A stretch of 64,000 bases of DNA from Stegostoma tigrinum (lineage: Eukaryota). The notes under the pieces are model-generated. The model worked only from the letters and a program-made list of their open reading frames with translations, was not told where the DNA came from and did not search any database. Where the stretch lies: NCBI RefSeq assembly GCF_030684315.1, contig NC_081387.1, positions 1,716,497-1,780,496 on the forward strand, read 5' to 3'. Each line of letters opens with the position of its first letter. The first letter of the stretch is position 1. Made by a program: the position numbers and the translations under genes. Of the stretch, positions 15,766-52,170 are shown in pieces.

Positions 15766-15791
15766 TCAGGGTGATTCCCCTGAATCAGTAG
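15766..15791 (-). CDS. MHC class I exon 7, cytoplasmic (TTDSGESP*)
   Basis: Acceptor TTTCCTTTTCACAG, phase 1, Ser/Thr-rich, TGA at 15768-15766. The exon continues to donor GAG/GTATGA at 15746. Confidence 0.65.
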
Positions 15792-15834
15792 CTGTGAAAA
15801 GGAAACATATCTGTCACACAGATTATTTTACACA

Positions 15835-16065
15835 TTTTACAAACATGAGAATGTGACATACAGGGACTTAGAGACAGCCAAAGAAACAGTCACACTGACA
15901 TAAAAACACACATATTCACGGAGACATGCAGTTACATAGAAAGAGACAGACAAACATACACAAAACACATACAAACACATGGATCGAGGCAGACATGAAT
16001 GCATAATTGAGACAGAAATGACAACATCTAAGGAGACAGGGAGAAATACACCAACAGACACAGGG
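15835..16065. repeat. Degenerate CA/GA-rich low-complexity tract
   Basis: ACAC/AGAC-rich composition within class I intron 6. Confidence 0.7.
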
Positions 16066-16088
16066 ACAAGTCTGTATTATTTTCATAC

Positions 16089-16127
16089 TTAGTTTTCCCA
16101 CATCGGAACCAGATTTCTTCTCTCCTC
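16089..16127 (-). CDS. MHC class I exon 6, cytoplasmic (GGEKKSGSDVGKL)
   Basis: Acceptor TTTTGTCTGCCTCTCTTTAG, donor GTATGA, 39 nt, phase 1-1. Confidence 0.7.
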   Translation of the reverse strand, partial: EERRNLVPMWEN

Positions 16128-16351
16128 CTAAAGAGAGGCAGACAAAACTATAACTTCAGTTGCAGCTCCCTTACACTGCAACGACACAAATTTACTCTGT
16201 ACATAAGGGTAACATCATTTACGCAAAGCACCCTCATCATTACCCGCACAAATTTACAGTACACACGCTTGGGAACTTGCATTCCCAATTGGCCCCCAAA
16301 CCACCTTGGGTAATGTCTCTCAACCATGGTAGTAAGTCAACCTGCTCCTAC

Positions 16352-16510
16352 CTGTCAGTGACAGATCTGGTCCTGATATCTTCCTTCTCCTCTTCCAGAC
16401 AAACATACCAATGGTAAGACCAATCAGAACGAGGACAGCAGCAACAATTCCAACATCCAAATGTTTACTTGTTCCCTGTCGAGATCTTGGAGATAGTTGA
16501 AATGCCTCAA
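16352..16510 (-). CDS. MHC class I exon 5, connecting peptide and transmembrane segment
   Basis: 159 nt, phase 1-1, CTACAG acceptor and GTAGGA donor. Encodes VGIVAAVLVLIGLTIGMFVW followed by the stop-transfer KRRRK. Confidence 0.85.
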
Positions 16511-17379
16511 CTGTAGTGGTGGCGACGGCGGTGGTGGAGGAAGTGGGGGGGGGGGGGGGGGAAATGAACAAATGAGGACGAGATCAATGATCAATGAATA
16601 ATCACAGTCACTGCTCATTGAGAAACAGTTGTACCAAGGCTGTTTGCATCTTGAATACAATCTATGGTGTGATAGGCCATCTAACTGGAGTATGATATTG
16701 GTTGGAAAGATGCACTGTGGCAGGGATTACACTCTTATGATACACTTTAGGAGGGAGATAATTAAATGAAGATTGATTTCTTTTCAGACATTTAAAATAC
16801 TAATCATCCAAACTCCATTCTAATCACCGAATGAGTGATGAATCACCAGAACAACCTCACAAATAATCTCATTTCTGGTTGCACAATCAATTTATCCACT
16901 TCCCAGTCTCACAATCACTTTGTGGCACTAATGGGAGTTCAAAGGTTTCTAGTGGGGCAAAGAAGTGATGACATGATTATTCATAGATCCTGTTACAGCC
17001 TTGGAATGCTTGACCTGTGGAATGAAGAAAGATAAGGGGTTTGGCTTTGTGGGAAACCGTATAGGAAACACTGATTACAGTATCAAGGATAGGAATAGCT
17101 TTGGAAAAGGATATGTAAAAATTAGAACGTTAAAAAGTGGTTTGGCCCAGGTGAATTTCTCAACGTGAAGCAGTTAAGTAGCAGGCAAGGAGGAGTAGGG
17201 TTGGTTATAGATGAAAAGAAGGGTTATCTTATTTAGTACATTATACATGCCCTCTGTCCACATGAGTGTTTAAAATCGAGCTTGACTAAAGACGACGCTA
17301 TCAATAAAACACTAGAGAAGAAGGTTGTATGGGAATCAGATGAAATAAAAATAGATTGAGAAAAGGAACTGCGTTAAAA

Positions 17380-18760
17380 AGAACTGAACATCAAAAATGT
17401 CCTCCTGGCTGATGGGATGCATTTCAGGTTACTGCAGAAATGAAAGGTGAGGACTGCAGAGGCCCTGATCACCATCTCCTTATGTTTCTCATGTGAGGGA
17501 GATGTCAGAAGGTTGTGAAATCACTAAGATTACATTCCAGGAAGTCAGAGGTAAACCTGGAAACTACTGAATAACTCAGACAATAGGAGTAGAAAGTGAC
17601 AATTCAGTCCATTTGTATCTGTTCCACCATTTGGTGAGATCACAAGTGATCTCTATCTGAACTGCTTATTTTTTAATACTTTTAACAATCCAAAACTTTG
17701 TCAATGTGAGATTTGAAATTAATTGAGCGAATTCTGCTTTGTTTTGTAGAAGAGAGCTCAACAGTGCAAAGCGGTGTTTTCAAGCATCTCTCCTGGAATG
17801 TGCGGACTCTGATTTGATGGCTTTCTCCCTTTTCCTGCACTCCCCATCACGAAAAAGCAATCCATTCCATCTACCTTACCAACAACTCCTTTCAGAATCC
17901 TTAAATACTCAATAAAATCACCATGAACCTACGCCACCTCAGTGAAGATCAGACTGGTTTAAGTCAGCCCTCTTCAATAATTAAACTCCTAAAACTGTGC
18001 AACATTTGAGTAAGTCTGTGCTGAACTCCTTCCAGTACCTTTCTATCTGTATCTTTCCGGTGGAGCAGTACCGAGGACTAGATAAAAATTTAACTATACT
18101 CTAGATGTGACCCTAATTATAGCTAAACTATTAAATGAACACATGACACCTGTCTTCCCAAAGAAAGTAAACAATTTAGTGACAGTAAACTTGGAGACGG
18201 CAGTTATGGACAGAGTAGTGATAAATGGCAAGATGTTTGAAAGTGGTTAGATTTATTATTTATTGGTTCCAGATGGAATGCGTCAGAGATTACTGAAAGA
18301 AGCTCATATGTAAATGGCTGAAACTGGTCACATCTCTCAATTTTCATTGGACACTGGTGTGAACCTGGAAGACGGGAGATTCACTCCTGTTATAACATCA
18401 TTCACTGAGAGAAGGATAAACCCAGAAAAGTACAGGGCAAACAGTCCGACAGCAGTGGAAATCATCAGAGGCAAAATCAAGTTTCATTTGGAAAGGCATG
18501 GATTAAAGGGAAGTTATGCCTGATTAACTTGGTGGAAATCTTTGAAGATGTAGCAGGGAAGATTGATCAAGTTTGCGCAGTACATATTATATCCATGGGC
18601 TTGTTAAAAAGTTCAACAAATTACGACAAAAGGAGATTTATTAAGGCGGTGCTGGCAAATGGAATTAAGGGTTAAGAAATTAGTTTTGTAACAATGCAAA
18701 GATGAAGATGAATAAAGGTCTTTCAGGCTGAAAGCTGGGTTGCAATAATGTTCTGCAAGA
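17380..18760 (+). mobile_element. Highly degenerate CR1 fragments in class I intron 4
   Basis: Patches resembling CR1 ORF2 at about 17390-17570 and 18410-18760, with an opposite-strand CR1 3' remnant between them. Confidence 0.45.
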
Positions 18761-19294
18761 GTCCCCAAGCGATGAGCAGATTACTCTTTGCAAGAGTCAT
18801 TACACATTTGTGGCTAACAAGCTTTATGTCCGTTAGAATACTGAAATAGCTGCAGCAAAGGGAAAAACAGTGCATAATTGGCAGCTCTGTCTCTTAGCAA
18901 TTTTATCAATTACATAATTTGTTTTATATAAATAAAGAGGTTTCAATGCTAACAGTTTCTGCTTTCAAAAGGTCTGAATCCTTGCAATTTTTTAAATCAA
19001 ACTGTAGTGAAGGAAGTTTTTATAAATCAGTGACTGACTGCTTTATAAAACCTACACTAACACATATGGTTGCCACAGCGGTGGTCAGATACAGTGGTTA
19101 TAGTAAGTGAATGGGCCATAGTATTACCACAGATTTGCATTGTGACATGTAGGGTCAGTATGTCAGTGGGACACAGTTTAGATTTGGCAGTGTGTGAGAA
19201 ACCTTTTAACCTCATATTTCAAAGTTGACACAGATCTCAGTCCCTCAAACAGACACTGGCCCCACAATCTCTGACACACACCATACCCCAAAGA

Positions 19295-21617
19295 TAACAA
19301 AGTGTGAAGCTGTATGAACACAGCAGGCCAAGCAGCATCTCAGGAGTACAAAATCTGACGTTTCAGGCCTAGACCCTTCAACAGAGAGGGGGATGGGGAG
19401 GGGATTCTGAAATAAGTAGGGAGAGAGGGGGAGGCAGACCAAAGATGAATCGAGGAGAATCTAGGTGGGGAGGGGATAGGTCAGTCTGTGGAGGATGGAC
19501 AGGTCAAGGAGGCAGGATGAGGTTGGTAGGTGGGAAATGGAGGTGCGGCTGGATCATGACCCCACCCCCAAGCACCAAACCATCATCTCCAATACCATCC
19601 ATGACCACATCACCTCAGGGGACCTCCCACCCACAGCCTCCAACCTCACTGTTCCCCAGCCCCGCACCGCCCGCTTCTATTTCCTTCCCAAAATCCACAA
19701 ACCTGCCTACCCTGGCTGACCTATTGTCTCCGCCTGCTCCTGCCCCACCGAACTCATCTCCACCTACCTGGACTCCATTTTCTCCCCACCTATGTCCGTG
19801 ACACCACCCATGCCCTCCACCTTCTCCAGAACTTCCAACTCCCTGCCCCCCCAACACCTCATTTTCACCATGGACGTCCAGTCCTATACAGCTGCATTCC
19901 TCCTGCAGATGGCCTTAAGGCTCTCCGCTTCTTCCTGTCCTGCAGGCCTGACCAATACCCCTCCACCGACACCCTCATCTGCCTAGCCAAACACGTCCTC
20001 ACCCTCAACAACTTCTCTTTCGATTCCTTCCACTTCCGACAGACAAAGGGGGTGGCCATGGGTACCCGCATGGGCCCAAGCTATGCCTGCCTCTTTGCAG
20101 GTAACATGGAACAGTCCCTCTTCCGCACCTACACTGGCCCCAAACCCCACCTCTTCCTCTATTACATTGAGGACTGTATTGGTGCTGCCTCTTGTTCCCA
20201 AGAGGAGCTCGATCAGTTCATCCACTTCACCAACACCTTCCACCTCAACCTCAAGTTCACCTGGGCCATCTCCAACACATCCCTCCCCTTCCTGGACCTC
20301 TCAGGCTTCATCTCAGGCAACCAGCTAGAAACTGTGTCCACTTCAAGCCCACTGACTCCCACCGCTACCTAGAATACACCTCCTCCCACCCAACCCCCTG
20401 CAAAAATTCCATCCCCTATTCCTAATTCCTTCGCCTCCGCCGCATCTGCTCCCAGGATGAGGCATTCCACTCCCAAACATCCCAGATGTCCGCGTTCGTC
20501 AGGGACCACAACTCCCCCCCGCTACCCCGCAGTGGTCGAGAATGCCCATGACCGTGTCTCCCGCATTTCCCGCAACACATCCCTCACACCCCGCCCCCGC
20601 AATAACCGCCCTAAGAGAATCCCCCTCGTCCTCACATACCACCCGACCAACCTCCGCATACAACGCATCATCGTCCGACACTTCCGCCATCTACAATCCG
20701 ACCCCACCACCCAAGACATTTTTCCATCCCCACCCTTGTCTGCCTTCCGGAGAGACCACTCTCTCCGTGACTCCCTTATCCGCTCCACACTCCCCTCCAA
20801 CCCCTCTACTCCTGGCACCTTCCCCTGCAACCGCAGGAAGTGCTACACTTGCCCTCACACCTCCTCCCTCAACCCCATCTCAGGCCCCAAGATGACTTCC
20901 ATATTAAGCAGATGCTCACCTGCACATCCGCCAATGTAGTATGCTGTATCCATTGTACCCGGTGCGGCTTCCCTCTACATTGGGGAACGCTTTGCAGAAC
21001 ACCTCCGCTTGGTTCGTAATAAACAACTGCACCTCCCAGTCGCGAACCATTTTAACTCCCCCTCCCATTCCTTAGACGACATGTCCATCATGGGCCTCCC
21101 GCAGTGCCACAATGATGCCACCCGAAGATTGCAGGAACAGCAACTCATTCTGCTTGGGAACTCTGCAGCCCAATGGTATCAATGTGGACTTCACTAGCTT
21201 CAAAATCTCCCCCTCCGCCACTGCATCCCAAAACCAGACCAGCTCGTCCCCTCCCCCCACTGCATCACAAAACCAGCTCAGCTCATCCCCGCCTCCCTAA
21301 CCTGTTCCTCCTCTCACCTATCCCCTCCTCCCACCTCAAGCCGCACCTCCATTTCCCACCTACCAACCTCATCCGCCTCCCCGGACTGACCTATCCCCTC
21401 CCCACCTCCTATCTTCTCCTCTATCCATCTTCGGTCCGCCTCCCCCTCTCTCCCTATTTATGTCAGAACCCTCTCCCCACCCTCCTCTCTGATGAAGGGT
21501 CTAGGCCCAAAACGTCAGCTTTTGTGCTCCTGAAATGCTGCTTGGCCTGCTGTGTTCATTCACCTTCCCATTTTGTTATCTTGGATTCTCCAGCATCTGC
21601 AGTTCCCATTATCTCTG
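19295..21617 (+). mobile_element. 5'-truncated Penelope-like retroelement (RT plus GIY-YIG endonuclease) with an inverted copy of its 3' end
   Basis: Frameshifted RT motifs FTMDVQS, GVAMGTRMGPSYACLF, YIED (for YIDD) and LPFLD; Cys linker CNRRKCYTC; GIY-YIG-like NVV..IHCTRC...YIG. Segment 19295 to about 19550 is the reverse complement of the 3' end. 12-bp TSD ATACCCCAAAGA at 19283-19294 and 21618-21629. Confidence 0.9.
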
Positions 21618-21771
21618 ATACCCCAAAGACCCTGACACAGACACATTTATTCCCATCCCCCCCACAGTCCCTGACAGACACACACACAGTATCTTCCGCA
21701 GTCCTTGACACACACAGTTCCTTACAATCACCCACAATTAGGCTATCCCCAGCAGTCACTATTGCTCTTAC

Positions 21772-22044
21772 CCCACTGTCTGGTCTCCACTCCTTTGCTG
21801 CCGTGTTCATACTGACAGGAATAAGTGGCTGTGTCTTCCAATTCTATTACTGCCCATCTCCTGAATTGGTAAGTGCCATTGTGGTTGGGAAGAATTCCAG
21901 TGGAGTACGTTTCTCCAATTGGTGTGCCATTTTTTAGGAGGATGACTTCAATATCTCGAGGGTAAAATCCTGTCACAAGACAGGACAGTTGAGCTGATTC
22001 AGTTGCTGATGTGACATCCACAGTAAGAAACATCTGAGGAGCAA
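21772..22044 (-). CDS. MHC class I exon 4, alpha3 Ig C1 domain
   Basis: LSCLVTGFYPRDI...ILPNHNGTYQ...YSCQYEH; 273 nt, phase 1-1; TTTCTCAG acceptor, GTAAGA donor. Confidence 0.95.
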
Positions 22045-22629
22045 CTGAGAAAGTGAAATAGATCAGAATCAGGTCAGCGAGAGACAGGCATTGATAAATA
22101 CCTCTTTAAATTGGAGTCTGATCCCTACCTGGAGGAACCATAAATAGCCCTTTAATATGGGGTTAAACCCTGACCACAAGGAATTGTAAATACCCATATA
22201 ATCTGTGGATTAGACCTTTTATTGAGCGATAACATAATGAATGTCATTCAGTCCTGATTGACAGGCTGTCATCTCAATCTCAGCTCCTACAAACGCCCAA
22301 TTCTCAGTCCTGACGACTCTCAGTTGCCCACTCTTCACACTCATTCTCACTTCCAATTAACCTCCCCACTCTCAATTGCCCATCCCAAACTCCTCGCTGC
22401 ACCTCAACCTCAGTTTCCCCTCACTCACAGTCACCCCAAACCCTCACTTTCATTCAGATGTTGTGGTAATATCAATGGACTAGCGATTGAGGACCTCAGG
22501 CCAATCTTAGCAATAAATGCTTGTCAAGCCAGCAGTGCCCACATTTCATAAATGAATTTAAAAAAATACTCCCTCACTCTTAGATATTCCCACTCTCCGT
22601 TCTCCACCATCTCCCCATCCCACACTCAC

Positions 22630-22902
22630 TGGGTTTTAACGCTTTCTCTCCCTGCTTCAAGTATGTTTTCAGCCACTCAATGCAGGTTCTCTCCAGGTAA
22701 ATCTTCCTCTGCAGATTCCTGGCCTTGTCCTGGTCCCACTTGTTCTTGGTAATCAGTCCCCAGGATACTGGAGTCACCCACACCATGTGCTCCTTGTCAA
22801 AGCTAATGTAGTCCTGGCCATCCCAGCCTTCCTGGTGAAATCCGTTGCTCCTCCCATCAGTCTGGAGCTCACAGCCATGCATCACCTGGACTGTGTGGAT
22901 CC
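22630..22902 (-). CDS. MHC class I exon 3, alpha2 domain
   Basis: GIHTVQVMHGCEL...GWDGQDYISFD...ITKNKWD...YLERTCIEWLKTYL; 273 nt, phase 1-1; AACAG acceptor, GTGAGT donor. Confidence 0.96.
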
Positions 22903-23039
22903 CTGTTAATCAAACACACATACAGCCAATCAGCAATCTTTGCTGTGAGAACCCACCTACCCTGACCTGTCAGTCAGCAGGGAGAGCTTAGTGGAAGGAT
23001 GTAACCTTCCTCTGTTCCTTCTACTCTCAAACAGTCTCC

Positions 23040-24745
23040 AAAGATTGAAAGGAAGGTAACCTAACAATGCTGTTTGAAAAAGAGGCAGAATCCAGAGGGC
23101 TATAGCCTTATAACAGTCACAGGAAAAATACTGAAACCTGTTATTAGAATAACAGTAACAGGCTAATAATCTGACTACAGAGTTAACACGGACTTATCAC
23201 AGGGACATGATGTTTGGCTATTCTATTTCAGCGTTTCAATCACATAATGAATATGATAAATAATGAGAAAGACAATGCCCTCTAGATTTGGACTGCCCTA
23301 CCCTGGGGAAAAGACTTGATGATTCACCCCATCCATTCGCCTTATGATTTTATAAACGTCTATAACGTCACCTCTCAGCCTCTGTTAGTATGTAGTATTT
23401 GGATTTTAGATCAGTTTTGATAAGGTGCTAGATAAAAAGGTTATTCCAGAAAATAAGTATTCATGGTGATTCAGAACTGATTAACGGACAAAATGCAGAG
23501 AGTCAGGTTAAATAGGTCACATTCAGATTGGCAAGCTGGAACTAACAAAGACCCTGTAAGGATCAGTACCCAAGTCAGCCCTGAGGACAGAGATCGCAAG
23601 AACTGCAGATGCTGGAGTCAGAGTCAACACAGTGTGGAGCTGGAGGAACATAGCAGATCAGGCAACATCGGAGGAGCAGTTCTGATGAAAAAGGCCCAAC
23701 CCGAAACATCAGCTCTCCTGCTCCTCTGATGCTGCCTGACCTGCTGTGTTCCTTCAGCTCCGCAGTGCTTTGAGCGTGAGAACATAATGCTGCTGAGGGA
23801 TGTCAAAAAGATGTAGGATAGGGCAGTCAGAATACAATGCATAGAAGCATTAAATTAGAAAAACAGGAAAAGCAGCATTTTTTGGAATGTTAAGGAGTGA
23901 GGAATATTTACAATCGGAGGGATATAGGTATTCCCTGTTTGTCGAATCACAAGATGGTTACGGTATAGAGGGGCCCATACAGTCAGACACTGAGAACATG
24001 GAAACACTGTACCAACCAAACATCCTAAATTAATCCAGTCCCTTTTGCTAGTAACTGGCCCATATTGCTCTAAACCCTTTCTATTCATGAACCCATTCAA
24101 ATACCTTTTAAACGTTGGAAATGTACCAGTCTGCACCATTTCCGCCTGCAGTTCATTCCATACACACCCCACCCTTTGTATGAAACCATTTGCCCCTTGG
24201 ATCCCTTTTAAATCTTTCCTCTCTCACCTTAAACCTGTGCCCGTTAGATATGGATTCCCCTGCCCTGGGGAAAAGCCCTCGATGATTCACCCTATTCATT
24301 TGCCTCATGATTTTATAAATCTCTATAAAGGTCACCCCTCAGCTTCCGATTGTCCAGAGAAAATTGCCTCAGCTTATTTAGCCTCTCCCTTTAGCCCAAA
24401 CCCTGCTGCCCTGGCAACGTCCTTTTAAGTCTTTTCTGAGCCCTTCCAACTTCTTTCCTATAGCAAGGAGGCCAGGCTTGAACACAGTGTTCCCATACTG
24501 GCCTAAACATTGTCCTGTGCAGCCACATGACGTCCCAATTTCTGTACTCAATGCACTGACCAATAAAGGCAAGCGTACCAAACGCTTTCTTCACTACTGT
24601 TTACCTGCCACTTCAAGGTCCATGGTCCCTATGAGTAGCAACACTCTCGAGAGCCTTATCATTAAGCATACAAGTGCTGCCCTGATTTGCCCTACCAAAA
24701 TGTAGCACCTCACATTTATCTAGATTAAATTCCATATACCACTTG
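23040..24745. mobile_element. Nested CR1 fragments and a Penelope-terminus fold-back (23585-23775) in class I intron 2
   Basis: Minus-strand CR1 3' end at 23975-24745 (AFGTLAFI, HRFKVREERF). Hammerhead-like CTGATGA...GAAACATC at 23681. Confidence 0.7.
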
Positions 24746-25036
24746 TTATCTGTTGTTTCTGTGCCAGCCCTCTACAACAGTGACTCAACCAGACCTAATC
24801 CAGCACCATTTCAGAGATAAAGTGGCAGGGAGTGAAACATAAATGAGTAAGGAAGGGGAATGGTCAGACATAAAGGGTTGGAGAGAATAGAGACAGGGAA
24901 TGGGGAAAACAGAGAGACACGGAGGATGGAGGTAATAAAAAGACAGGGGGAGTGGGGATAACAGAGAAAAATGAGGAATAAGGGTGGGGAATGGGTAGCA
25001 GGGAAACACAGGGGTTAGAGAGAGGGGTAGTCTCAC

Positions 25037-25297
25037 CTCCACTCTGGTTGGTGCGGTTTAAGGCTGTCTGAATATTGGTCAGCCCGATGTGCTCAGAGCT
25101 CCTCAGGACCTGAGTCTGCTGTTCCCAATACTCAGGGTCCTGACACTCTGCCATCCATCGTTGCAGAGGGATCAATTTGCGAAGATCGCTGTCATAGTAA
25201 TCTATCGGAATGTCATCAACATAACCAATAGCCAGAAACTTGGGGAGACCATGAATTGGGGTCATTGCAGTGTAGAAATACCGGAGGGAATGACAGC
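25037..25297 (-). CDS. MHC class I exon 2, alpha1 domain
   Basis: GCHSLRYFYTAMT...GYVDD...YDSD...EYWEQQTQ...RTNQSG; 261 nt, phase 1-1; TTGCAG acceptor, GTGAGA donor. Confidence 0.96.
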
Positions 25298-25354
25298 CTG
25301 CAACAGGGAGAGAGGAAAACAATAGGACATGTACCTCAAACACATCACAGAGTT

Positions 25355-26000
25355 CCTTGTAAATAAAATCTGACGTGAGACCAGAGTATAAATCCCAATG
25401 CAAAGCCCCCCGTAAGTAAACCCTACAGCACAGAGTCTCCCATAAGCAACCATAAACCATACAGCTCCTTCTAAAATAAACCCAGAAAGACAGAGGGCCC
25501 TGTAAATAAACCCAAAAACACAGAGGGCTCTCATTATTTTTATTGATTCATTCACAGGATGAGCGTGTCGCTGCCCAGCCAGCACTTATTCCCCATCCCA
25601 AATTGCCCAGCAGGCAGTTCAGAGTCAACCACATTGCTGAGAGTCTGGAGTCACATGTAGGCCAGGCAAGAATGCAGTTTCTCTCTCTGAAGGATATTAG
25701 TGAACCAGGTGGGTTTTTCCAACAATTGACAACAGATTTATGGTCTGTTAATTCCTGATATTTATTGAATTGACATTCCACCATCTGCCAATGCAGGATT
25801 CAAATCCAGGTCCCCAGAACATTATCTGGGTCTTTGGATTGATAGCCCACTGATGGTATCACTAGGCCATTGCCTCCCTTTATAAATAAACTCCAAAATA
25901 CAGAGCCCCCAGCAAATGAATCCCAACACAGACACCAGCAAATGAATCCCAACACAGAGTCCCCTGTAAATAAACACCAACACAGACACCGTAAATAAGA
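25355..26000. repeat. Degenerate minisatellite (about 26-31 bp unit) split by a SINE
   Basis: About 10 units resembling TAAATAAACCCAA-CACAGAG-CCCCTG on both sides of the SINE at 25533-25878. Confidence 0.65.
25533..25878 (-). mobile_element. tRNA-derived SINE (Deu/SacSINE1-like)
   Basis: Reverse complement of 32685-33025; A-box-like TGGCCTAGTGA, B-box-like GATTTGAATCC, A-rich tail. Confidence 0.75.
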
Positions 26001-26457
26001 CCTGGCATTGCTCCATTGCCTACTTATTAAAAGGACGTTTCCATTGTCCAAAGCTCTGGTTAGATTCCTCAGCAGAACTGCTTTCTGTGTTGGGCATTGG
26101 GCCTTAATAAGGATAGACTAGATGAAGTGTGCAGGTCAGAGTGACAGATACTGAGTCTTCAACAAAATAGCAGAGACCTGACTCGTAATCCAATGAAATT
26201 ATTGAGGTGATGACACTGTTTAAAGGATTTAATTGCAGATTCCAAAAGTGACAGCATCACAAACACTGGAATCGATTTTAAAATCATAGCTAAGCTGTTT
26301 CTCCAGCCTGAAAATGATTGCCCACACGACACCACTACTCACTGACGTTTAATATTCCAGTCCCAAACCTGGCACAGAGACCCTGATCCACTAATCAAGA
26401 ATTAATACCCTAATAGCCAGTCCGACATGAGGAGCCCTCTCTGACAACAGTACCAAC

Positions 26458-26509
26458 CTGCACAGTCCACTGCAAACAGAGAGACCAGCATTGTAAGACC
26501 AATCATCAT
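26458..26509 (-). CDS. MHC class I exon 1, signal peptide (MMIGLTMLVSLFAVDCA)
   Basis: Hydrophobic 17-codon leader ending in phase 1 at G/GTTGGT and joining in frame to alpha1. Total spliced CDS is 1083 nt (360 aa). Confidence 0.8.
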
Positions 26510-27489: not shown

Positions 27490-27827
27490 AGGAGCTCTCA
27501 CCGCCCACGTGACAGCGGCTCGGACTGCCGTGTCGTCAAAATTCAAACTCCTGGACGCTAACCGCCGCTGCGCGGGACAAGCCTACAACCCCCGTCAGGC
27601 ACCGCGGACCGTCCCCTCGCTTGGTTCACAGCTGCCAAGCCCAAATGCAGCATGGGTAATGTAGTTCGGAGCGGGATTGTGCGGGGTTTGGATGAGTTGA
27701 GCTGAGTGTCTGTGGAGGTTTTAAACGACCTCAGTGAAGGGGGAGGTTTGTGGGTTTCAGGTTGTAATTCAGTTAATGTTTGAGGAACTGGCCTGTCCCT
27801 CACTCCATCAAACACAGGAAGGCACTT
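27490..27827. promoter_or_regulatory. CpG-rich promoter-like element with ZNF143/Staf-type motif, E-box and GC box
   Basis: Minus-strand ACTACATTACCCATGCTGCA (27665-27646), CACGTGAC at 27506, CCGCCC at 27501. Segment 27646-27827 is an inverted paralog of 31758-31939. Confidence 0.6.
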
Positions 27828-49987: not shown

Positions 49988-52170
49988 GGAACATAGAACA
50001 TTACAGCACAGTACAGGCCCTTCGGCCCTCGATGTTGTGCCAGCCTGTCATACCGATCTCAAGCCCATCTCACCTACACTATTCCATGTACGTCCATATG
50101 CTTGTCCATTGACGACTTAAATGTACCTAAAGTTGGCGAATCTACTACCGTTGCAGGCAAAGCGTTCCATTCCCTTACTAATCTCTGAGTAAAGAAACCA
50201 CCTCTGACATCTGTCCTATATCTTTCACCCCTCAATTTAAAGCTATGCCCCCTCGTGCTCGCTGTCACCATCCTAGGAAAAAGGCTCTCCCGATCCACCC
50301 TATCTAACCCTCTGATTATTTTATATGTTTCAATTAAGTCACCTCTCAACCTTCTTCTCTCTAATGAAAACAGCCTCAAGTCCCTCAGCCTTTCCTCGTA
50401 AGACCTTCCCTCCATAACAGGCAACATCCTAGTAAATCTCCTCTGCACCCTTTCCAAAACTTCCACATTCTTCTTGTAATGCGGTGACCAGAACTGTACA
50501 CAATACTCCAAGTGCGGCCACACCAGAGTTTTGTACAGCTGCAGCATAACCTCTTGGTTCCGGTACTCGATCACTCTATTAATAAAAGCTAAAACACTGT
50601 ATGCCTTCTTAACAGCCCTGCCAACCTGGGTGGCAACTTTCAACGATCTGTGTACATGGACACCGAGATCTCTCTGCTCATCTACACTACCAAAAATCTT
50701 ACCATTAGCCCAGTACTTTGCCTTCCAGTTACTCCTACCAAAGTGCATCACCTCACACTTGTCTGCATTAAACTCCATTTGCCACCTCTCAGCCCAGCTC
50801 TGCAGCTTATCTATGTCTCTCTGCAACCTACAGCATCCTTCGTCACTATCCACAACTCCACCGACTTTAGTGTCATCTGCAAATTTACTAACCCATCCTT
50901 CTACGCCCTCATCCAGGTCATTTATAAAAATGACAAACAGCAGTGGACCCAACACCAACCCTTGCGGGACACGACTTGTAACTGGTCTCCAGGATGAACA
51001 TTTCCCATCAACTACCACCCTCTGTCTTCTTTCAGCAAGCCAATTTCCGATCCAAACTGCTATATCTCCCACATTTCCATTCCTCTGCATTTTGTACAAT
51101 AGCCTACTGTGGGGAACCTTATCAAACGCCTTGCTGAAATCCATATACACCACATCAACCGGTTTACTCTCATCTACCTGTTTGGTCACCTTCTCAAAGA
51201 ACTCAATAAGTTTTGTGTGGCACGACCTTCCCTTCACAAAACCGTGCTGACTATCCCTAATCAATTTATTCTTTTCTAGATGATTATAAATCCTATCCCT
51301 TATAACCTTTTCCAACACTTTACCAACAACTGAGGTAAGGCTCACTGGTGTATAATTACTAGGGTTGTCTCTACTCCCCTTCTTGAACAGGGGAACCACA
51401 TTTGCTTTCCTCCAGTCATCTGGCACTATTCCTGTAGACAATGACGAGTTAAAGATCAATGCCAAAGGCTCAGCAATCTCCTCCCTGGCTTCCCAGAGGA
51501 TCCTAGGATAAATCCCATCCAGCCCAGGGGACTTATCTACCTTCACCCTCTGTAGGATTTCTAATACCTCTTCCTTGTGAACCTCAATCCCACCTAGTCT
51601 AGTCGCCTGTATCCCAGTATTCTCCTCAACAACGTTATTGTTTTCTGGAATGAATACTGTTGAAAAATATTCATTTAGTGCTTCCCCTATCTCATCTGAC
51701 TCCACACACAATCTACCACTACTATCCTTGATTGGGTCTAATCTTACTTTCATCATTCTTTCATTCCTTAAATACCTATAGAATGCCTTAGTGTTTACCC
51801 TGATCCTATCCGCCAACTTCTCATGTCTCCTCCTGGCTCTTCTGAGCTCTCTCTTTAGGTCTTTCCGGGCTACCTCGTAGCCCTCAAGTGCCCTAACTGA
51901 GCATTCACATCTTATCCGAACATAAGCCTTCTTCTTCCTCTTGACCAGAGATTCAACCTACTTCGTAAACCACGGCTCCCGTGCTCTACAGCTTCCTCCC
52001 TGCCTGACAGGTACATACTTATCTAGGACACAACGGAGCTTTTCCTTGAATAAGCTCCACATTTCTAATGTGCCCATCCCCTGCAATTTCGTTCCCCATC
52101 CTATGGTCCCTAAATCTTGCCTAATCTCATCGTAATTGCCTTTCCCCCAGCTATAACTCTTGCCCAGTGG
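49988..52170 (-). mobile_element. Young 5'-truncated CR1 LINE
   Basis: 580-codon open frame 50074-51816 with RT motifs YMDFSKAFD, VPQGLVLGPLLF and FADD; short 3' UTR ending in TTCTATG-type repeats. Confidence 0.95.

What the first reader, a model, noticed from the sequence alone, without database searches (positions are those of the whole stretch)
15766..26509. Intact class I gene with a complete peptide-anchor set but non-classical peripheral features
Seen: residues equivalent to Y7, Y59, R84, T143, K146, W147, Y159 and Y171 are all present, plus Y123, W167, the N86 sequon and both canonical disulfides. The gene is alone in this window, next to zinc-finger genes, with no TAP/PSMB/tapasin sequence recognised. 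Established: this residue set marks peptide-binding class I (R84 outside mammals), and cartilaginous fish have classical UAA plus several non-classical lineages. Inference: a peptide-binding but probably non-classical or divergent lineage member. I cannot assign the lineage by eye.
Basis: partly seen in the sequence, partly recalled or inferred. Interest (0 to 1): 0.7.

Follow-up and report, generated by a model that had tools for sequence, protein, structure and literature searches.

The report
Shark UAA-2 fixed-groove class I gene
This is an intact, spliced shark immune gene (MHC class I) that matches a little-described lineage labelled UAA-2; its peptide-gripping groove varies far less between shark species than that of the classical gene, so it likely displays a fixed set of peptides rather than a variable one.

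Summary
A seven-exon, 360-aa class I gene lies on the minus strand (26509-15766), has all eight anchor residues and is identical to a zebra shark RefSeq model. It is not the classical locus. A UAA-type gene lies 0.64 Mb away beside TAP-like and proteasome hits, and UDA-, UGA-, UCA- and UBA-like genes lie further along the same contig. By eye it differs from nurse shark 'UAA-2' at 15 of 269 residues. That name appears in a supplementary FASTA of Verissimo 2023, whose text mentions zinc-finger-flanked 'MHC-Ia-like' genes as unpublished data. Orthologues in bamboo, epaulette, cat and horn sharks form one clade. In them 18 of 26 variable groove positions are invariant, against 3 of 26 in UAA-type sequences. 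They share an N83 sequon and E116, absent from 72 other sequences. The alpha3 domain groups with squalomorph class I, not with galeomorph UAA. Spliced contigs show transcription, and the few samples laid show little variation. Best reading: a likely non-classical, peptide-binding UAA offshoot with a fixed motif. Ligand, tissue pattern and polymorphism are untested or thinly tested. A sequence look-up of this scan's earlier notes found nothing; one note on a neighbouring paralogue cites UAA-2.

The parts
26458..26509 (-). Exon 1, coding part: leader peptide (17 aa)
   Evidence: ATG at 26509, GT donor, phase 1; covered by a contig of run X5 (table 8)
25037..25297 (-). Exon 2: alpha1 domain (Y7, Y59, R84, N86 sequon; lineage-specific N83 sequon; extra Cys at mature positions 2 and 52)
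   Evidence: spliced to exon 3 in run X5
22630..22902 (-). Exon 3: alpha2 domain (C101-C164, E116, Y123, T143, K146, W147, R152, R156, Y159, W167, Y171)
   Evidence: spliced to exon 4 in X5, X15 and X18
21772..22044 (-). Exon 4: alpha3 domain of the type also found in dogfish, sawshark and sevengill class I; two further N-glycan sequons
16352..16510 (-). Exon 5: connecting peptide, transmembrane helix, start of the tail
   Evidence: identical to P0015; in X15 and X18 the loose ends at 21772 read as this exon (table 7)
16089..16127 (-). Exon 6: cytoplasmic tail; lacks the tyrosine kept by the other 11 of 12 tails printed
15766..15791 (-). Exon 7, coding part with stop codon
25346..25998 (-). 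Two decayed patches in intron 1 (25346-25531, 25883-25998) resembling the intron-1 minisatellite of the core UAA-type gene
   Evidence: blastn 72-76% identity, best E 2e-18 and 2e-17, low-complexity filter off; tandem repeat at 25884-25990
27501..27800 (-). CpG-rich stretch, candidate promoter or first non-coding exon (inferred; start site not shown)
   Evidence: GC 0.57, CpG observed/expected 0.83, the highest of 16 bins from 26.0 to 30.0 kb

Best explanation
This is the spliced, intact zebra shark counterpart of nurse shark 'UAA-2', a class I gene lying 0.5-0.6 Mb from the classical UAA/TAP/proteasome core, and it likely works as a non-classical, low-polymorphism molecule that is predicted to bind peptides with one fixed motif. 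Shown here: gene structure, transcription, single copy in this assembly, a separate clade in six shark species of three orders plus the nurse shark entry, a groove far less variable than UAA's, and an alpha3 domain outside the galeomorph UAA/UBA group. Inferred mechanism: the heavy chain pairs with beta2-microglobulin and holds 8-11-mer peptides by their ends through the eight anchors. The invariant pockets (D34, Q63, N77, H114, E116, R152, R156) select a narrow peptide set, probably acidic in the middle positions and aromatic or basic at the C-terminus. The complex is then read by a semi-invariant T-cell or NK-type receptor rather than by a broad CD8 repertoire. Inferred origin: a UAA-type leader-alpha1-alpha2 block joined to the second shark alpha3-transmembrane module before horn sharks split from other galeomorphs, after which diversifying selection on the groove stopped.
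For: Identity: 15 of 269 residues differ from Gcirratum_UAA-2 over alpha1-alpha3, counted by eye. The next-best copies in the genome match at 60%, 59% and 61% per domain. Position: UAA-type alpha2 at C44:1,098,353, TAP-like exons at 1,169,042 and 1,221,603, proteasome hits at 1,243,236 and 1,273,265, this gene at about 1.74 Mb, with zinc-finger neighbours. This matches the 'MHC-Ia-like' description in PMC10751288. Trees: alpha1 clade of 9 of 80 rows, support 100/98; alpha1+alpha2 clade 100/97 inside the shark UAA/UBA group (98/99, 42 rows); alpha3 in a separate clade (100/98, 100/96), and grouping with galeomorph UAA alpha3 rejected at p-AU 5e-46. Groove: 18 of 26 non-anchor groove positions invariant in 7 lineage rows against 3 of 26 in 8 UAA-type rows; mean pairwise identity 85% against 41%. 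N83 sequon in 9 of 9 lineage rows and 0 of 72 others; E116 in 0 of 72 others. Expression: X5 contigs skip introns 2 and 3 at the predicted sites, DNA run X1 does not; X15 and X18 of organism C are also spliced. Variation: X1 shows 0 differences in exons 2-4 and X5 shows 1 (table 8); among four organism C runs from three studies, 1 of 16 listed sites varies, giving N to D outside the pocket list.
Against: The groove is no more conserved than the rest of alpha1/alpha2 (18 of 26 against 97 of 144 invariant, p = 1.0), so the data show loss of diversifying selection, not special constraint on a ligand. Two of seven orthologues have lost a C-terminal anchor (R84H in Chiloscyllium plagiosum, K146T in Hemiscyllium ocellatum). 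The polymorphism test is thin: only X15 and X18 cover all of alpha2 and alpha3, alpha1 was not compared between organism C runs, contigs drop rare variants, and X1 may be the assembled individual. AU tests on alpha1+alpha2 did not reject grouping with UDA (p 0.55, one long branch) or with UBA (p 0.14). The alpha3 rejection also forced UBA out of the UAA group, which adds to the penalty. The UAA comparison set mixes alleles and paralogues, and the rows are not independent. In HLA-A*30 residue 116 alone does not set the C-terminal motif (PMC6664060 passages). No receptor, ligand or tissue data were obtained. Horn shark has several near-identical copies, so single copy is not a lineage rule.
Confidence: 0.68

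Rival explanations
1. It is a second, minor classical-type locus (like chicken BF1 or HLA-C; comparison recalled) that presents proteasome/TAP peptides to CD8 T cells with few alleles.
For: All eight anchors, W167 and Y123 are kept. It is MHC-linked within about 0.5 Mb of TAP-like and proteasome hits. Alpha1+alpha2 nest among shark UAA/UBA. Orthologues keep the tail tyrosine. The same alpha3 type is used by a Squalus class I protein (P0045) that I recall as the dogfish classical gene, not verified.
Against: Groove identity across orders is 85% against 41% for UAA-type rows; four Triakis UAA sequences share only 62% at these positions within one species. No ISRE or Y-box lies within 1.5 kb upstream of the ATG, whereas the core UAA gene has an ISRE-like element and four ATTGG/CCAAT pentamers within 600 bases. 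The CD-loop Asp220 named for nurse shark UAA (PMC10140343) aligns to Gly.
Confidence: 0.2
2. It keeps a classical-looking groove as a relic or for stability but works without presenting antigen to lymphocytes, for example as a chaperone-like, transport or secreted molecule.
For: The extra N83 sequon sits beside R84 and N86, two more sequons lie in alpha3, and there are two extra cysteines. The tail tyrosine is lost in this species. A C. plagiosum model lacks the transmembrane exon (P0017). Two orthologues have lost an anchor.
Against: Alpha1/alpha2 are better conserved than alpha3 (85% against 74%), and five of seven orthologue rows keep every anchor position they cover. The neighbouring paralogue at C44:1.41 Mb shows what anchor loss looks like (F59, L84, I143, Q146, C147, F159, H171).
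Confidence: 0.1
3. It is a young pseudogene or an ordinary UAA allele or duplicate.
For: The core UAA-type alpha1 exon carries an apparent one-base frameshift in this assembly, which could leave room for another gene to be the working classical locus.
Against: The frame is intact, splicing is shown in two organisms, orthologues exist in three shark orders, and it is only 56-59% identical to the core UAA-type gene in alpha1/alpha2 and 40% in alpha3. The frameshift lies beside a G run and may be an assembly error (not tested).
Confidence: 0.02

Closest known systems
Nurse shark 'UAA-2' (PMC10751288 Supplemental File 10) and elasmobranch 'MHC-Ia-like' genes (same paper, 'unpublished data')
   Same: 254 of 269 residues identical over alpha1-alpha3 by eye, including the N83 sequon, E116, R152, R156 and the alpha3 type; zinc-finger surroundings near the class Ia region.
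   Different: Only species-level substitutions, such as Cys at mature position 2. The parts of the paper I read give no function, polymorphism, expression or phylogeny for it. That 'UAA-2' is one of the 'MHC-Ia-like' genes is my inference from the name and the synteny.
Classical shark UAA (nurse shark Gici-UAA*01, PDB 6LUP; zebra shark core gene at C44:1.09-1.11 Mb)
   Same: Best solved-structure match, E 6e-88; same anchors; same alpha1+alpha2 clade; relic of the same intron-1 minisatellite.
   Different: 53/64/39% identity in alpha1/alpha2/alpha3 to Gici-UAA; different alpha3 clade; groove not hypervariable; not adjacent to TAP/PSMB; no ISRE or Y-box near the ATG.
Cartilaginous-fish UDA (Almeida et al. 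2020; paper not held, its properties are recalled; sequence seen)
   Same: Works-like model: peptide-anchor residues kept, low copy, groove conserved between species.
   Different: The genome has its own UDA-like gene at C44:6.41 Mb, 47/36/42% identical to this one. UDA also occurs in skate and elephant shark, whereas this lineage was found only in galeomorph sharks.
Teleost typical Z lineage (PMC4364491, passages)
   Same: Anchors kept, low polymorphism, alpha1/alpha2 better conserved than alpha3.
   Different: No orthology was tested. Z keeps almost all 37 groove residues for over 400 million years and has F171; here 18 of 26 non-anchor positions are invariant over a shorter span and Y171 is kept.
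Squalomorph class I with the same alpha3 module (Squalus Q8HWH7, Pristiophorus, Heptranchias models)
   Same: Alpha3 60-68% and transmembrane/tail 44-50% identical; one alpha3 clade.
   Different: Their alpha1 domains (49-63% identical) fall outside the lineage clade and lack the N83 sequon and E116.

Membership tests
UAA-2 / MHC-Ia-like | Near identity to the nurse shark UAA-2 sequence in all three ectodomains | tested here: met
   5 of 87, 7 of 91 and 3 of 91 differences, counted by eye
UAA-2 / MHC-Ia-like | Near the class Ia gene and surrounded by zinc-finger genes | tested here: met
   0.64 Mb from a UAA-type gene; C2H2 arrays on the upstream side within the window; the downstream side beyond the window was not examined
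Classical class Ia (UAA) | Eight peptide-terminus anchors (Y7, Y59, Y/R84, T143, K146, W147, Y159, Y171; list from PMC4364491) | tested here: met
   8 of 8
Classical class Ia (UAA) | Being the Ia gene that sits next to TAP1/2 and PSMB8/9 | tested here: not met
   Another UAA-type gene lies about 70 kb from a TAP-like exon; this gene is 0.46-0.56 Mb from the TAP-like and proteasome hits. The hits were not typed to TAP1/2 or PSMB8/9.
Classical class Ia (UAA) | Excess variability at groove positions between species | tested here: not met
   Groove 85% against non-groove 85% in the lineage; 41% against 71% in UAA-type rows
Classical class Ia (UAA) | High allelic polymorphism within species | tested here: inconclusive
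   1 variable site of 16 listed in four runs, only two of them with full alpha2-alpha3 cover; points to low polymorphism but the sample is too small
Classical class Ia (UAA) | Ubiquitous, high, interferon-inducible expression | not testable with these tools
   Only contigs without tissue labels were served; the promoter scan is suggestive only
UDA | Orthology to Gici-UDA and place in the large Ib cluster | tested here: not met
   A separate UDA-like gene lies at C44:6.41 Mb, nearly identical by eye to Gici_UDA, 36-47% identical to this gene. The AU test alone did not separate them (p 0.55).
UBA | Clade with Gici-UBA, multicopy cluster away from the Ia region, loss of Y59 and T143 | tested here: not met
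   UBA-like cluster at C44:10.7-11.2 Mb; UBA forms its own clade in the alpha1 tree; this gene keeps Y59 and T143 where 7 of 7 UBA-type rows do not. AU on alpha1+alpha2 was not significant (p 0.14).
UCA / UEA / UFA / UGA | Similarity to the named reference sequences | tested here: not met
   Compared by eye with Supplemental File 10 (it holds no UEA entry); own-genome Ib genes at 5.5-6.8 Mb are 23-38% identical in alpha1/alpha2
Nurse shark UAA-NC1 | Identity with cDNA AF357922 | not testable with these tools
   Only mentioned in PMC1513397; the sequence was not among my hits, so whether UAA-2 equals UAA-NC1 stays open
Peptide-presenting class I (function) | Refolds with beta2m and peptide; presents to a receptor | not testable with these tools
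   Inferred from motifs only

The most novel reading that the evidence does not exclude
Galeomorph sharks have kept, since before horn sharks diverged, a dedicated fixed-groove peptide presenter derived from UAA, a shark parallel to teleost Z or HLA-E. Its unique second glycan site at N83 alters the helix end where the loading complex and NK-type receptors dock. Its alpha3-transmembrane module is the one squalomorph sharks use for their classical gene, so the two shark superorders may have given the classical role to different alpha3 lineages by exon shuffling.
Probability: 0.25. Interest if true: 0.65.

Novelty: new member of a known kind. Interest (0 to 1): 0.4.

Why it matters
The lineage is known to specialists by name, but I found no description of it in the library searched. 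A conserved, low-variation peptide binder is easy to test: one recombinant protein would give a peptide motif and a tetramer usable across carpet, cat and horn sharks, which would address whether sharks have HLA-E- or Z-like presentation to innate-like lymphocytes. The two alpha3 lineages also warn that alpha3-only trees will mislabel shark class I genes. As a single gene it is an expected, already annotated member of the shark MHC.

Tried and rejected
1) Primary UDA paper (PMC7002201) and the UCA/UEA paper (PMC8454915): not held, so their content is recalled or taken from citing passages. 2) Searches for a published description of the lineage: 'UAA-2' + shark + MHC gave 0 papers; the searches listed nothing beyond PMC10751288 that appeared to describe it (judged from the listings). 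Subscription journals and the cited thesis are not covered. 3) 'Alpha3 older than the shark-ray or shark-chimaera split': the best trees suggest it but AU tests do not reject the younger placements (p 0.11 and 0.36); not claimed. 4) 'Groove is super-conserved like Z': rejected, p = 1.0 against non-groove positions. 5) 'E116 means a basic C-terminal anchor': weakened, since HLA-A*01:01 has N77, D116 and R156 and binds a C-terminal Tyr. 6) No run holding the stretch is on record as RNA. Run X24 of the same species gave no cover of the exons apart from one low bin; that blank is not used as evidence on tissue pattern. 7) Search for shorter, partial orthologues: 3 hits at 45-49%, none of this lineage. 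No member was seen among the ray, lamniform, squalomorph or chimaera rows, but the searches were word-limited (120 of 219 hits listed), so absence is not shown. 8) The alpha2 tree finished only as a quick tree (lineage support SH-aLRT 91). 10) Core UAA promoter against the window by blastn gave only short-repeat hits. 11) I could not map the catshark orthologue's protein accession to either 'MHC-Ia like' gene id in the supplement. 12) No structure or complex prediction was run; the fold is not in doubt and the tool returns no coordinates.


Full report
Observation. The region holds one class I gene on the minus strand. Seven exons with GT-AG, phase-1 introns give a 360-aa protein identical to RefSeq model XP_048375968.1 of Stegostoma tigrinum. 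The window's contig has the same length, 31,945,831 bases, as the contig of that model, so the organism is taken to be zebra shark. Five class I queries found no second class I gene in the window, two TAP-like exons found no match there, and C2H2 arrays lie at about 43.9-45.5 and 58.7-59.4 kb.

Genomic setting. The window is G000:C44:1,716,497-1,780,496. All 24 alpha2 matches (of 36 candidates scored) lie on this contig, as do 16 of 16 alpha1 and 28 of 29 alpha3 matches. Along the contig come a UAA-type gene (alpha2 at 1,098,353), two TAP-like exons (1,169,042 and 1,221,603; below the family cut-off), two proteasome-family hits (1,243,236 and 1,273,265), a degenerate class I gene (1.40-1.42 Mb), this gene (1.73-1.74 Mb), a Ib cluster at 5.5-6.8 Mb and a UBA-like cluster at 10.7-11.2 Mb. 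By eye the Ib cluster holds genes matching the published Gici_UDA, Gcirratum_UGA and Gcirratum_UCA sequences. Verissimo et al. 2023 (PMC10751288; I read parts 1-3 of 7, found passages, and supplement parts 11, 97 and 98 of 98) describe this layout. [quoted passage not shown] The gene is single-copy in this assembly: the next-best matches are 60%, 59% and 61% identical per domain.

Identity. A motif search of the supplement hit one entry, 'Gcirratum_UAA-2'. It differs from this protein at 5 of 87, 7 of 91 and 3 of 91 residues in alpha1, alpha2 and alpha3, counted by eye. Database orthologues are Chiloscyllium plagiosum, C. punctatum and Hemiscyllium ocellatum (90-92% in alpha1/alpha2), Scyliorhinus canicula and S. 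torazame (78-79%) and Heterodontus francisci (77-82%, several near-identical copies). 'UAA-2' with shark and MHC found no paper in main text. A 2025 review lists UBA, UEA, UDA, UFA and UGA and does not mention it in the passages seen (PMC12562908). The primary UDA and UCA/UEA papers were not held, so they may say more.

Trees. I used 75 of the proteins returned (most chondrichthyan hits, one isoform each as a rule, plus six bony-vertebrate outgroups) and six own-genome paralogues, 81 rows in all. The lineage is one clade in alpha1 (9 of 80 rows, 100/98) and in alpha1+alpha2 (6 of 42 rows, 100/97), inside a shark UAA/UBA group (98/99) that excludes rays and chimaera. AU tests on alpha1+alpha2 did not reject grouping with UDA (p 0.55) or UBA (p 0.14), so exclusion from those families rests on identity and on their separate loci. 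Alpha3 tells a different story. It joins a clade (100/98 in 78 rows; 100/96 in 43 rows) with Squalus, Pristiophorus, Heptranchias, one other Heterodontus gene and the 1.41-Mb paralogue, apart from galeomorph UAA, UBA and ray UAA. Forcing it with ten galeomorph UAA alpha3 domains costs 99 log units (p 5e-46), a constraint that also displaces UBA. The age of this split is not established (p 0.11 and 0.36). Heptranchias has similar alpha1/alpha2 on both alpha3 types (P0047, P0068), which fits exon shuffling. Intron 1 keeps decayed patches of the minisatellite that fills intron 1 of the core UAA-type gene, which supports a UAA origin for the 5' part.

Groove. I used a 34-position pocket list recalled from the NetMHCpan pseudo-sequence, not taken from a call, and removed eight anchor-type positions. 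Seven lineage rows are invariant at 18 of 26 positions and eight UAA-type rows at 3 of 26 (Fisher p 4e-5; rows not independent). Matched pairs give 21-22 of 25-26 identical for the lineage against 8-13 of 26 for UAA. The groove is not better conserved than the rest of alpha1/alpha2 (97 of 144 invariant, p 1.0), while in UAA-type rows it is much worse conserved (62 of 144 elsewhere, p 0.002). Alpha1/alpha2 (85%) are better conserved than alpha3 (74%), the pattern noted for teleost Z (PMC4364491 passages). Lineage markers are an N83 sequon next to N86 (9 of 9 rows against 0 of 72) and E116 (0 of 72 others), with invariant D34, Q63, N77, H114, R152 and R156. Against strict constraint, C. plagiosum has H84 and H. 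ocellatum has T146. HLA-A*01:01, with N77, D116 and R156, binds a peptide with P3 Glu and C-terminal Tyr, and residue 116 alone does not fix the motif (PMC6664060 passages). I therefore predict acidic middle residues and leave the C-terminus as aromatic or basic; this is inference.

Periphery. The tail tyrosine is missing in this protein and present in the other 11 of 12 tails printed, including five orthologues, so it is a species trait. Cys at mature position 2 is not shared by orthologues; Cys52 is shared by all but horn shark. The nurse shark CD-loop Asp220 proposed to face CD8 (PMC10140343 passages) aligns to Gly, but the next residue is acidic, so this is weak. No ISRE or Y-box was found within 1.5 kb upstream of the ATG; the core UAA-type promoter has an ISRE-like element and four ATTGG/CCAAT pentamers within 600 bases. 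One RefSeq isoform starts at 30.0-31.8 kb, so the promoter is not fixed and this contrast is only suggestive.

Expression and variation. Run X5 (library type not on record) has contigs that skip introns 2 and 3 exactly, with CT..AC ends on the plus strand; DNA-like run X1 covers the introns and shows neither joint. X19 (table 8), X15 and X18 of organism C are spliced across intron 3. X1 matches exons 2-4 without difference but may be the assembled animal; X5 has one difference. Among X15, X17, X18 and X20 (three studies), 15 of 16 listed differences from the window agree wherever covered and one is private to X15; it gives N to D outside the pocket list. X15 and X18 each carry alpha2-alpha3 on one unbroken contig. 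This points to low polymorphism but rests on two full and two partial samples.

Verdict. The gene is real, expressed and assignable to UAA-2 / MHC-Ia-like. It most likely works like UDA or teleost Z, as a fixed-groove peptide binder, but it is not the UDA gene, Z orthology was not tested, and it descends from UAA. Confidence in the identity is high (about 0.95); confidence in the non-classical fixed-motif mechanism is 0.68. What may be new is the description: galeomorph-wide orthology, the frozen groove, the N83 and E116 markers and the alpha3 mosaic. The authors of PMC10751288 state that they hold unpublished data on such genes. Interest 0.4.

Noticed in passing
L030:3824-4095 (G000:C44:about 1,098,850): The alpha1 exon of the core UAA-type gene has an apparent one-base frameshift beside a G run; assembly error or null haplotype.
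   Followed up: no
L027 and L028 (G000:C44:1,169,042 and 1,221,603): The two TAP-like exons are nearly identical (4 of 62 residues differ) and face opposite ways 52 kb apart, suggesting a duplicated TAP gene rather than TAP1 and TAP2.
   Followed up: no
L032-L033 (G000:C44:1.40-1.42 Mb): A second Ia-like gene shares the unusual alpha3 type and Cys at position 2 but has lost seven of eight anchors.
   Followed up: partly
P0045, P0044, P0046, P0047, P0048, P0068: Squalomorph sharks carry UAA-like alpha1/alpha2 on the second alpha3 type, and Heptranchias has both types.
   Followed up: partly
P0004 cluster (Heterodontus francisci): The lineage is expanded into several near-identical models on at least two contigs in horn shark (39 cluster members, isoforms included).
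   Followed up: no
L030-L031 (core UAA-type gene, intron 1): Intron 1 is about 10 kb and largely a 32-base minisatellite with more than 130 motif copies.
   Followed up: partly
window 19600-21200: Intron 4 holds a broken retroelement-like insertion on the plus strand; reverse-transcriptase and GIY-YIG-like by eye, no Pfam hit for two pieces.
   Followed up: no
window 50077-51957 (-): A 627-aa open reverse-transcriptase frame of a LINE-like element (RVT_1 E 3e-33).
   Followed up: no
G000:C257:159,841-160,074: One alpha3-like match (41%) lies off the MHC contig; possibly W-type or an unplaced class I or II gene.
   Followed up: no
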